Shown in pieces: positions 51,001 through 54,000 of a stretch of DNA of 64,000 bases; positions within the stretch are counted from its first letter, which is position 1; each line of letters begins with the position of its first letter. Source of the DNA: Mytilus edulis (lineage: Eukaryota); the NCBI RefSeq assembly GCF_963676685.1, contig NC_092347.1, positions 19,282,001 through 19,346,000 on the forward strand, given 5' to 3'. Position numbers: made by a program.

Positions 51001-54000
51001 TGTCTGTAATAGATATCAACCTTATCAATAGATATCTGTAATAGATATCAACCTTATCAATAGATATCTGTAATAGATATCAACGTTATACTTTCCTAAT
51101 CATCGATACTATGTTTTATCATTGTCAATAAACTGATAATTGTATTTTTCATTCTAGGCTTAATTTGAGTATGTTTGTTTTTCAGTTTTAAGTCAATACC
51201 TTAACGAAGAACTAGTAGTCACTGATTTTGTCAAATGTGAAGGAAAAGACGTTTTTCATTGTGACGATACACAAGCAGAGTGTATATCTAAAGATAAAAT
51301 ATGTAATGGTGTAAATGAATGTAGTACAGGGCGAGACGAAAGTGTGGAGGAATGTGGTAAGTGTAAAGGGCGAGACGAAAGTGTGAAGGAATGTGGTAAG
51401 TATAAAGGGCGAGACGAAAGTGTGGAGGAATGTGGTTAGTGTAAACAATATGGAAGTACAATCACAAAAATACTGAACTCCGAGGAAAATTCAAAACGGA
51501 TATTCCCTAATCAAATGGCAAAATCAATAGCTCAAACACATGACACACATGAAACGAATGGATAATGACTGTCATATTCCTGACTTGGTACAGGCATTTT
51601 CTTATGTAGAAAATGGTGGATAAAACCTGGTTTTATAGCTAGCTAAACCTCTCACTTGTATGACAGTAGCATCAAAAACAAAGTTACATCAATAATATGA
51701 TAGTATGTCCAATGAACAGAACCATTATATTGATTGACAACAATCAATGTATTAACAAAACAAACAAACATGTAATCTTTTTACAGCAAATATGTTATGA
51801 GTATTTAGTTACTAGTTTACCACATTATTTGACAGTCAGCAATCAATGTTAGATTTTATTACCATATATGCAAAAGCGTCATCTGAAAATAGGCGTTAGG
51901 TAGGATTAAAGTCAACTGGTATATCATTTATTAAAAATGAGAGCAGAATTGAGATCAGAACAGAACATTGAGGAAATCGTAGGAAACTAATTGAGTACGA
52001 CATGATGAAAAGCCATATCCATGCATTTATTTTGCACTGTATCCCACTGTGATTAAGTATTTGACATGAAATAATGATTCTATAGATAAAGTCAAGTATG
52101 ATTAAAATCGAGCGTTTGAAGTTTTGAGATGAATTATTCTAAGAATATTTAAATTTCTAATAGAAAAGTATCCATTGCCTTTTCATAATGGTGCATATAA
52201 TTCATCTTTTCAAAATGTAAGTTTGATAAGATGTTCGAAATGCTAGACAGGTTAAAAGGATTTTTAGATATGATTTGAAGTTCATTGATATTCTTTTACA
52301 ATTTATTGTTATTGAAACAAGTGTGGACACAGATGAGTGTGGATAGTATGTTTGACAGTGTTTTATGATAAATGTAGTTCTATGATTTTCCTATATGTGT
52401 TACTAACTGTGTTGCACGATGACAACCAACCGGAGCATTAGGAGTATTGTTTATTTATATTTAGTTTAGTTTTTATGTTCAAGACAGGCATGGAAGAGAC
52501 ACTAATTGCATTAGTTACCAAATGATTATGATAGAATATGTTCCACATCTTTGATTTTGGATACAATTTATAGCTAGGAGAGCAACACATAATAGGTTCA
52601 ATTTTTCGTGATTTTTTTTAAATTGGGAGATGATATCTGAGAACATGATATAAGGAGCATGTAATTCAGTGGTTGTCGTTTGTTTATGCGTTACATATTC
52701 GTTTTTTCTTTATTTTTTGTACATAAATAAGCCTGTTATTTTTCTCCTTTGAATTGTTTCACATTGTCATTTTGAGACCTTTTATAGCCGACTATGGTGC
52801 ATTAGCTTTGCTCATTGTTGAAGGTTGTGTGGCGACCGGTAATTGTTAATTTCTATGTCATTTTGGTCTGTTGTGGAGAATTGTCTCATTGGCAATCATA
52901 TCACATCTTTTTTTATATGTATTTGCTAACTATTTGTATGGTTCTATTTATATATACTGAGCGCAAATGAAAACGCAACACTTGGTTTTTCAAAAATAAA
53001 ATTTATATTAGAAATTATGATCTTTCAAAATGAATTGTTCTTGAAAATTAACAATTCTAACAATAGATCGATATCAAACAAAAATGTTTCATTGTCATCT
53101 TTCGGGCGCAATAGATAAACGAAACATCCAATGTCGAATCATCAAATCACAGTCCTAACAAAAAATGTTACAACCCTGTTGTGCAGTGCAATCTCGACAG
53201 CGCCGTGGAATTGATCATCCCGGACGTTTAATGTGATCTCGAGGAATGTTATTCCACTTGTCCCGCAAAGCAAACTCAAGCTGACTTTTTGATATTGGTG
53301 GTGGTTTTCATCGTCTAAACCATGTCATTATTGAAACTAATAAAGTTAACATCTTAGTTTTGATATAATTGAAAGTTGTATTAACAGTTTTTAAACCGGA
53401 TTTTTCTTCCCTTTTTATTACTTGTAAGATTAACAAATTATTCTTTGTACAGAAAAAGCACTGGATTTGATTTCTTTATTATCATTAATTGTTCACAGCC
53501 ACTGTAAGATGAAATTCTATAAGTAGATTTGCAAATAATACAGTATCACAATTTACGTAATGATGCTATTCAACAAATAGGTAGTGTTATAGGATTGACA
53601 GTATTTATTCGATACATCTTGAATTGAAACTAAACAAACATGCCAAATGTTATTTTATATTGAAAGCAAAAGTTACTTGCAGATACTTGATTTCTTGCCC
53701 AGAACAAATTCTCGAGTGAAAAAGATAATTGTTATTTTTTATGCCAGCTATTCCAAAGCTAAGATTGTTTGACTATCAGTATGCAATTTCTTTTTATTAT
53801 GATATCATATATATAATTACAAATGAAAAAGGAGTAATTTCTGATATCCAAAATATAAACATTGAAAATATTAAATTCAAATAAAAAAGGACGTGCTCCA
53901 ATCATTATGTAAGCTGTGATTGTCTCGAAAAGAACTAGTTTTGCAGTAATTCGACTAAATCATAAACGTTTAGTTTTCGTAGATTTTGTCAAAACTCTCC

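What the first reader, a model, noticed from the sequence alone, without database searches (positions are those of the whole stretch)
51328..51444. In-frame triplication of exon end plus splice donor creates three alternative donors
Seen: the 39-bp (13-codon) unit duplicates the donor, giving G|GTAAGT 51357, G|GTAAGT 51396 and G|GTTAGT 51435, all phase 1 with no stop between them. Using donor 2 or 3 appends GKCKGRDESVKEC and then GKYKGRDESVEEC, repeating the acidic end of the LDLa module and adding 2 or 3 cysteines; read-through hits TAG right after, giving a short secreted single-module form. Inference: a VNTR that directly generates receptor isoforms. Units differ at several positions, arguing against a simple assembly artefact.
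Basis: partly seen in the sequence, partly recalled or inferred. Interest (0 to 1): 0.72.

Follow-up and report, generated by a model that had tools for sequence, protein, structure and literature searches.

The report
Minisatellite repeating an exon's splice donor
A short stretch covering the end of a coding exon and its splice signal has been copied three times in tandem, a known kind of arrangement that may or may not give extra protein forms; this cannot be settled without RNA data.

Summary
An exact 3 x 39-bp tandem array lies at 51329-51445. Each unit holds the last 28 nt of an LDL-receptor class A (LDLa) exon (51186-51356) plus the first 11 nt of its intron. The donor is therefore reiterated in phase 1 at 51357 and 51396 (both GTG|GTAAGT) and at 51435 (GTG|GTTAGT). 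The frame stays open to a TAG at 51437-51439.

Only three columns vary among the copies. All three changes sit in copies 2 and 3, and all would change the protein (E>K, C>Y, K>stop). One of them weakens donor 3.

The window is rich in minisatellites: 14 arrays covering 7.6% of it. The array is best read as a young slippage-type duplication across an exon-intron boundary. This kind is already described in human F7, IFI6 (6-16), CBS, LMNB2 and PDGFA (PMC1557585).

Whether donors 2 and 3 are used cannot be tested here. By that paper's account, downstream copies are used in 2 of 5 genes, and the published rules for choosing among reiterated donors conflict (PMC1557585 against PMC3413131). "Receptor", "VNTR" and "secreted form" are unsupported. 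I rate it a new member of a known kind, of modest interest.

The parts
51186..51356 (+). LDLa exon, 171 nt, phase 1-1. It encodes a 16-residue lead-in and one six-cysteine module: C-EGKDVFH-C-DDTQAE-C-ISKDKI-C-NGVNE-C-STGRDESVEE-C.
   Evidence: Sequence and acceptor ...tttttcag| with AG at 51184-85. Cysteine pattern. Pfam PF00057, 27.3 bits, cut-off 24.1, residues 16-56 on profile 2-37. Weak PDB matches to LDLR and VLDLR modules, best 26.3 bits. The exon borders are inferred from frame, phase and consensus, not from RNA.
51329..51367 (+). Repeat unit R1: the last 28 nt of the exon plus the first 11 nt of the intron. It carries the first donor and is identical to the majority consensus of the three units.
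   Evidence: 0 mismatches to itself; R2 has 2 and R3 has 1.
51368..51406 (+). Repeat unit R2, with two private G>A changes. Position 19 turns GAG into AAG (E>K). Position 35 turns TGT into TAT (C>Y in the read-through frame).
51407..51445 (+). Repeat unit R3, with one private A>T change at position 31. This is position +3 of its donor, and it also creates the TAG.
51357..51362 (+). Donor 1, GTG|GTAAGT. Using it gives the plain LDLa module.
   Evidence: 7 of 9 matches to CAG|GTAAGT; U1 duplex -11.0 kcal/mol.
51396..51401 (+). Donor 2, GTG|GTAAGT, 39 nt downstream of donor 1 and in the same phase. Using it would add GKCKGRDESVKEC.
   Evidence: 7 of 9 matches; -11.0 kcal/mol. Translation.
51435..51440 (+). 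Donor 3, GTG|GTTAGT, weakened by T at +3. Using it would add a further GKYKGRDESVEEC.
   Evidence: 6 of 9 matches with an internal mismatch; -7.1 kcal/mol.
51437..51439 (+). TAG stop met on read-through. It lies inside donor 3 at positions +3 to +5.
62082..62192 (+). Next recognisable LDLa exon, 111 nt, phase 1-1, donor GTG|GTAAGT at 62193.
   Evidence: Pfam PF00057, 37.9 bits.
63577..63693 (+). Third LDLa exon, 117 nt, phase 1-1, donor G|GTAGGT at 63694.
   Evidence: Pfam PF00057, 42.2 bits.

Best explanation
This is a young three-copy minisatellite. It arose by slippage-type tandem duplication of a 39-bp piece straddling the 3' end of an LDLa exon (28 nt) and the start of its intron (11 nt). 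Copy 1 carries the working donor and yields the normal six-cysteine module. Copies 2 and 3 lie in the intron as reiterated pseudo-donors and drift neutrally. Copy 3 has already lost the consensus A at +3.

The open, in-frame state is a by-product of a unit length that happens to be a multiple of three. It is not an evolved isoform device. Any use of donor 2 would be a minor or incidental in-frame alternative 5' splice event.

Shown: the array, its register, the three donors, the frame, and the LDLa identity of the exon. Inferred: the exon borders, the slippage origin, and which donor is used.
For: - Exact 3 x 39 bp with no indels and only 3 variable columns.
- The 5-mer just before the array (GTACA, 51324-28) resembles the unit's end (GTAAA) at 4 of 5 positions. 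This fits microhomology at the duplication junction and explains the '3.1 copies' from Tandem Repeats Finder.
- R1 equals the consensus. All 3 substitutions are in R2 and R3, and all 3 would be non-synonymous or nonsense in the read-through frame, so there is no sign of coding constraint. With n = 3 this is weak.
- Donor 3 is weaker by 3.9 kcal/mol.
- The extension adds no second LDLa match: one Pfam stretch, residues 16-56, and the score falls from 27.3 to 25.5 bits.
- The window holds 14 tandem arrays of score 80 or more, covering 4882 of 64000 bp (7.6%). One lies about 95 bp upstream of this same exon. Overlap of an array with one of three donors is therefore not improbable.
- 4 of the 14 arrays have periods divisible by 3.
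- Precedent: in human F7, with a 37-bp array spanning the exon 7 / intron 7 boundary, only the most upstream of five to nine identical donors is used. The same is reported for LMNB2 and PDGF (PMC1557585; introduction, one results section and discussion read).
Against: - Donors 1 and 2 are identical over -3..+6, and both match U1 well.
- Unlike F7, where only 4 exon nt are repeated, each copy here brings 28 nt of purine-rich exon context.
- Passages of PMC3413131 report that with two strong 5' sites the intron-proximal (downstream) one wins. Its use rises beyond about 30 nt of separation and reaches about 100% at 45 nt or more. The separation here is 39 nt, which would predict substantial use of donor 2.
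- IFI 6-16 and CBS use their first two downstream copies (PMC1557585 introduction; PMC4526556 passage).
- A local RNA-fold ensemble puts donor 2 as more accessible than donor 1: mean unpaired probability 0.73 against 0.37, and 0.17 for donor 3. This is weak evidence.
- Use of donor 2 adds an even number of cysteines (two), which could pair with each other.
- All the splicing experiments cited are mammalian, and this genome is not.
Confidence: 0.6

Rival explanations
1. This is a true alternative 5' splice-site cassette. Donors 1 and 2, and perhaps donor 3, are all used. The gene then makes two or three in-frame isoforms that differ by 13-residue acidic, cysteine-bearing inserts after the first LDLa module. 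Copy number in the population would set the isoform repertoire.
For: - Identical donors 1 and 2 in the same phase, with an open frame.
- 28 nt of exon context duplicated with each donor.
- Preference for the intron-proximal site between strong sites 39 nt apart is expected from passages of PMC3413131.
- IFI 6-16 and CBS are precedents (PMC1557585 introduction; PMC4526556 passage).
- Donor 2 is predicted to be accessible.
Against: - There is no RNA, population or cross-species evidence.
- 3 of 5 human precedents are silent, and mutational work on F7 shows strict use of the most upstream site (PMC1557585).
- All 3 substitutions between copies change the protein. One removes a cysteine and one weakens donor 3.
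- The insert is not a recognisable domain.
- The donor-3 form has an unpaired cysteine.
Confidence: 0.3
2. This is an assembly or consensus artefact. The true locus has one copy, or a different number, and the array was inflated during assembly or polishing.
For: No call supports this. Tandem arrays are a known source of assembly error (general knowledge).
Against: - The three copies differ at three positions and have no indels.
- At 117 bp, the array is short enough to be spanned by single reads of any current platform (inference).
- The window has many other clean arrays.
Confidence: 0.03
3. The LDLa exon is not part of a working gene. It would be a decaying exon or pseudogene fragment, so the array has no consequence for splicing at all.
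For: - No upstream exon was found in 51 kb: no further LDLa-like cysteine pattern, no Pfam hit at E-value up to 0.01 in the 10 longest other + strand frames downstream of 38000, and no signal-peptide-like first exon by a strict heuristic.
- The module scores only 27.3 bits and has N, E and T where canonical modules have D.
- A direct join to 62082 would leave a one-residue linker, C-G-C.
Against: - Three LDLa exons lie on one strand, all in phase 1-1, all with intact frames and six cysteines, and all with good acceptors and GTAAGT or GTAGGT donors.
- The gene may simply start outside the window, or have short exons that the searches miss.
Confidence: 0.07

Closest known systems
Human F7 intron 7 minisatellite (37-bp unit whose first copy spans the exon 7 / IVS7 boundary)
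   Same: The unit length is almost the same (37 against 39 bp). The first unit straddles the exon-intron junction, so the donor is reiterated in the intron. The downstream copies are competent splice sites in principle (PMC1557585).
   Different: F7 repeats only 4 exon nt and 33 intron nt, has five to nine copies, and has a weak donor (UGG|gugggu). Its unit is not a multiple of three, so most pseudo-sites shift the frame. Here the unit has 28 exon nt plus 11 intron nt, there are three copies, the donor is a strong GTAAGT, and the unit is in frame. F7 uses only the first donor; usage here is unknown.
Human IFI6 (6-16, G1P3) intron 2 minisatellite, which provides multiple splice donors (Turri et al. 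1995)
   Same: A minisatellite starting at an exon end supplies extra donors. Transcripts use the authentic donor and the two nearest repeat copies, giving three mRNA species and different isoforms (PMC1557585 introduction; PMC4526556 passage).
   Different: According to PMC1557585 there are 25 pseudo-sites there, against two here. The primary paper is not held, so unit length and frame are not cited. Usage is shown for IFI6 and not shown here.
Human CBS intron 13 minisatellite (15-20 repeats; two pseudo-sites used), and the LMNB2 and PDGF intron minisatellites (only the authentic donor used)
   Same: All are donor-reiterating minisatellites at an exon-intron boundary (PMC1557585 introduction).
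   Different: They have many more copies, other unit lengths (100 bp in LMNB2, 81 bp in PDGF), and are vertebrate genes. Their outcomes differ from gene to gene, which is why the outcome here cannot be predicted.
LDL-receptor class A module (Pfam PF00057) encoded on a phase 1-1 exon
   Same: Six cysteines, a Pfam score above the cut-off, a C-terminal D-E acidic motif, and the one-module-per-exon phase 1-1 layout in all three exons.
   Different: The first module is divergent: 27.3 bits, with N, E and T at positions that are D in typical modules, as aligned to VLDLR. No other part of an LDL-receptor-family protein is seen in the window.

Membership tests
Minisatellite whose first unit spans an exon-intron boundary and reiterates the 5' splice site (F7 / IFI6 / CBS type) | Head-to-tail array of units of about 10-100 bp | tested here: met
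   3 x 39 bp at 51329-51445, 92% matches, no indels.
Minisatellite whose first unit spans an exon-intron boundary and reiterates the 5' splice site (F7 / IFI6 / CBS type) | The first unit contains the exon's last bases and the authentic donor | tested here: met
   R1 holds 28 nt of the LDLa reading frame plus GTAAGTGTAAA. The exon border is inferred from frame, phase and consensus, not from RNA.
Minisatellite whose first unit spans an exon-intron boundary and reiterates the 5' splice site (F7 / IFI6 / CBS type) | Downstream units keep a donor consensus | tested here: met
   Donor 2 is identical to donor 1 over -3..+6. Donor 3 keeps GT but has T at +3.
Minisatellite whose first unit spans an exon-intron boundary and reiterates the 5' splice site (F7 / IFI6 / CBS type) | Copy number varies among individuals (VNTR in the strict sense) | not testable with these tools
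   There is one assembly only, with no reads and no other individuals.
Alternative 5' splice-site event giving in-frame isoforms | Two or more donors in one phase with an open frame between them | tested here: met
Alternative 5' splice-site event giving in-frame isoforms | Transcripts that use each donor | not testable with these tools
LDL-receptor class A module (PF00057) | Profile score above Pfam's gathering cut-off | tested here: met
   27.3, 37.9 and 42.2 bits for the three exons against a cut-off of 24.1.
LDL-receptor class A module (PF00057) | Six cysteines in the module spacing | tested here: met
   The pattern search found exactly three such stretches in six frames, all on the + strand.
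LDL-receptor class A module (PF00057) | Acidic calcium-binding cluster around Cys IV to Cys VI (the residue roles are recalled, not taken from a call) | tested here: inconclusive
   Module 1 reads C-NGVNE-C-STGRDE. The D-E pair is kept, but N, E and T stand where VLDLR modules have D (alignments). Calcium binding is not testable here.
LDL receptor family (a membrane receptor) | EGF-precursor / YWTD propeller region, a transmembrane segment and a cytoplasmic tail in addition to the LDLa cluster | tested here: inconclusive
   None was seen in the window. However, the gene runs off the window's end, and only ORFs of 60 aa or more were scanned. 'Receptor' is therefore unsupported, not refuted.

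The most novel reading that the evidence does not exclude
The array is a heritable 'donor cassette'. Its copy number differs among individuals, and donors 1 and 2 are both used. Individuals would then differ in the set of in-frame isoforms of an LDLa protein, each extra unit adding a 13-residue acidic loop closed by its own cysteine pair between two ligand-binding modules. That would be a length polymorphism of a binding protein written directly by a minisatellite, in an invertebrate.
Probability: 0.1. Interest if true: 0.55.

Novelty: new member of a known kind. Interest (0 to 1): 0.3.

Why it matters
If donor 2 is used, this locus would be a natural test case outside mammals for a question that two bodies of work answer differently. 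The F7 work finds that the most upstream of several identical 5' splice sites wins (PMC1557585). Work on duplicated strong sites finds that the intron-proximal one wins (PMC3413131). Here the two sites are strong, identical and 39 nt apart, inside the reported transition zone of about 30-45 nt.

It would also show how a small slippage event can add a cysteine-bearing insert to a modular extracellular protein without breaking the frame.

If only donor 1 is used, it is one more neutral intronic minisatellite in a genome full of them.

Tried and rejected
- **Long frame translations to Pfam.** I then scanned single open frames instead. The 10 longest non-LDLa + strand frames from 38000 onward gave no hit at E-value up to 0.01; two hits near E = 0.06-0.08 lie far below their cut-offs. 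Four antisense frames around the exons gave none.
- **Signal-peptide first exon.** A strict heuristic (ATG, hydrophobic core, GTRAG donor in phase 1) over 1-51185 gave 0 candidates. It was not relaxed.
- **Structure model.** The AlphaFold2 single-sequence model of the 83-residue read-through product was useless: mean pLDDT 38.5, with all 83 residues below 50. No fold search was made, and no structural claim rests on it.
- **RNA genes.** Rfam at gathering thresholds and ARAGORN found nothing in the window. The interspersed repeat next to the array therefore stays unclassified.
- **Slippage between the two GAATGT hexamers** (51317-22 and 51350-55). Rejected as the origin, because their spacing is 33 nt and the period is 39 nt.
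- **Reading R1's zero changes as selection.** Rejected as not significant: by my own arithmetic the chance is (2/3)^3, about 0.30.
- **Turri et al. 1995**, the primary paper on 6-16, is not held.
- **Two literature searches** failed on syntax and were re-sent without the prime sign.

Full report
**What is in the sequence**

Tandem Repeats Finder reports an array at 51324-51445 with period 39, 3.1 copies, 92% matches, no indels and score 216. A register scan shows that three full copies have the fewest variable columns (3 of 39) when they start at 51328 or 51329. I use this register:

| Unit | Coordinates |
|---|---|
| R1 | 51329-51367 |
| R2 | 51368-51406 |
| R3 | 51407-51445 |

The unit occurs nowhere else in the window at up to 3 mismatches, and 0 of 100 shuffles gave any match. 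The 5-mer before the array (GTACA) matches the unit's end (GTAAA) at 4 of 5 positions. This accounts for the '3.1 copies' and looks like junction microhomology.

**The exon**

The array sits at the 3' end of an open frame (51164-51439) that holds a six-cysteine pattern. Pfam assigns it to Ldl_recept_a (PF00057) at 27.3 bits against a cut-off of 24.1, with residues 16-56 on profile positions 2-37. With the acceptor ...tttttcag| (AG at 51184-85), the exon is 51186-51356: 171 nt, phase 1-1.

Two more LDLa exons follow on the same strand:

| Exon | Length | Pfam score | Donor |
|---|---|---|---|
| 62082-62192 | 111 nt | 37.9 bits | GTG\|GTAAGT at 62193 |
| 63577-63693 | 117 nt | 42.2 bits | G\|GTAGGT at 63694 |

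Both are also phase 1-1. The exons were searched one by one. All exon borders are inferred from frame, phase and consensus.

The closest solved structures are LDLR and VLDLR modules, at only about 26 bits. Those alignments show that the D-E-S-x-E-x-C ending is normal for some modules. They also show that module 1 has N, E and T where VLDLR has D.

**Anatomy of the unit**

Each unit is 28 nt of exon (GGG CGA GAC GAA AGT GTG GAG GAA TGT G) plus 11 nt of intron (GTAAGTGTAAA). The donor therefore recurs at 51357, 51396 and 51435, always after TGT-G, in phase 1.

| Donor | Position | Sequence | Matches to CAG\|GTAAGT | U1 duplex (kcal/mol) |
|---|---|---|---|---|
| 1 | 51357 | GTG\|GTAAGT | 7 of 9 | -11.0 |
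| 2 | 51396 | GTG\|GTAAGT | 7 of 9 | -11.0 |
| 3 | 51435 | GTG\|GTTAGT | 6 of 9 | -7.1 |

These figures come; the U1 motif used there is recalled. No other GT in 51186-51460 reached 6 of 9 matches.

The translation is ...STGRDESVEEC-GKCKGRDESVKEC-GKYKGRDESVEEC-G-stop.

**Differences among copies**

There are exactly three, each private to one copy:

| Copy | Position in unit | Change | Effect in read-through frame |
|---|---|---|---|
| R2 | 19 | G>A | E>K |
| R2 | 35 | G>A | C>Y |
| R3 | 31 | A>T | K>stop; this is also donor position +3 |

R1 equals the majority consensus. All three changes alter the read-through protein. This gives no hint of coding constraint on copies 2 and 3. With n = 3 it has no statistical weight; R1 being unchanged has a chance of about 0.30 by my own arithmetic. 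The TAG lies inside donor 3's intron side, so it interrupts none of the three possible spliced forms.

**Context**

- G+C is 0.28-0.34 throughout, and the window has no N.
- I do not take this contig for human. It looks like an invertebrate genome. My impression that the interspersed repeats are mussel-like is recalled and untested.
- The window holds 14 separate tandem arrays of score 80 or more, together 4882 bp, or 7.6%. One is a 36-bp x 5.1 array about 95 bp upstream of this exon's acceptor. With that density, an array overlapping one of three donors is not remarkable.
- 4 of the 14 arrays have a period divisible by three, so 'in frame' is roughly a one-in-three event.
- An interspersed repeat with six other partial copies in the window begins 8 bp after the array.
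- No Pfam hit at E-value up to 0.01 was found in the 10 longest other + strand frames from 38000 on, or in four antisense frames. Rfam and ARAGORN found nothing.

**How it most likely works**

The arrangement is a described kind. PMC1557585 (introduction, one results section and discussion read) lists minisatellites whose first unit spans an exon-intron boundary.

| Gene | Array | Donors used |
|---|---|---|
| F7 | 37 bp, five to nine copies | Only the most upstream |
| LMNB2 | 100-bp unit | Only the authentic donor |
| PDGF | 81-bp unit | Only the authentic donor |
| IFI 6-16 | 25 pseudo-sites | Authentic donor plus the first two downstream copies |
| CBS | 15-20 repeats | Authentic donor plus the first two downstream copies |

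A passage in PMC4526556 confirms three IFI6 mRNA species from two downstream repeat units.

Against the F7 'most upstream wins' rule stand passages of PMC3413131. [quoted passage not shown] Its use rises beyond about 30 nt of separation and is about 100% at 45 nt or more.

Here the two intact sites are strong, identical and 39 nt apart, and each has the same 28 nt of exon context. The published rules therefore disagree about this case. A local fold ensemble puts donor 2 as more exposed than donor 1 (0.73 against 0.37 mean unpaired probability; 0.17 for donor 3). I give that little weight.

My best reading, at confidence 0.6, is a young neutral slippage duplication with donor 1 as the main site. 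Donor 2 would be a competent in-frame alternative that may be used at some level, and donor 3 is decaying. The evolved-isoform reading gets 0.3.

- 'VNTR' needs population data.
- 'Receptor' needs more than three LDLa exons.
- The 'short secreted single-module form' is intron retention into a stop, with no signal peptide or upstream exon known (one search found no candidate).

**An unexplained detail**

Because every unit ends ...EC plus a split G, and exon 62082 starts GT-TGT, a direct join gives Cys-Gly-Cys whichever donor is used. That is a one-residue linker between modules. Either that is real or a small exon lies unrecognised in the 10.7-kb intron.

**What stayed unchecked**

- RNA evidence, raw reads, other individuals and orthologous loci.
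- The structure model of the read-through product was uninformative (pLDDT 38.5).
- My literature searches turned up only human examples of donor-reiterating minisatellites. They were not aimed at invertebrates, so I make no claim that none is in print.

**Verdict**

This is a new member of a known kind, with interest 0.3.

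Noticed in passing
window 50914-51089: A 36-bp x 5.1 minisatellite (93% matches) lies about 95 bp upstream of the LDLa exon's acceptor. The exon is therefore flanked by tandem arrays on both sides.
   Followed up: partly
window 51453-51667: An interspersed repeat starts 8 bp after the 39-bp array. It has six other partial copies at 78-83% identity: 42379-42583, 4745-4875, 17379-17497, 59720-59810, 16266-16351 and 55304-55355. It has no Rfam or tRNA match and remains unclassified.
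   Followed up: partly
window 51353-51356 joined in thought to 62082-62086: A direct join of the first LDLa exon to the next one gives Cys VI - Gly - Cys I, a one-residue linker between modules. It is the same for all three donors. This may point to an unrecognised small exon in the 10.7-kb intron.
   Followed up: no
window 19290-20444, 21884-23369, 2250-3074, 54139-54421, 34055-34174, 41125-41274, 42109-42322: The window has many large or very clean tandem arrays: 25 bp x 46, 499 bp x 3, 365 bp x 2.3, 35 bp x 8.1, 23 bp x 5.2 at 100% identity, 25 bp x 6 at 98%, and 53 bp x 4 at 96%. Tandem arrays of score 80 or more cover 7.6% of the window.
   Followed up: no
window 51212-51490, minus strand: A 92-aa antisense frame stays open through the whole array. 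It has no Pfam match and is probably a by-product of the purine-rich repeat.
   Followed up: yes
window 51353-51362, 62189-62198, 63690-63699: All three LDLa exons end the same way, with the Cys VI codon TGT plus G, followed by GTAAGT or GTAGGT. Any duplication across such a boundary would therefore recreate a phase-1 donor.
   Followed up: partly
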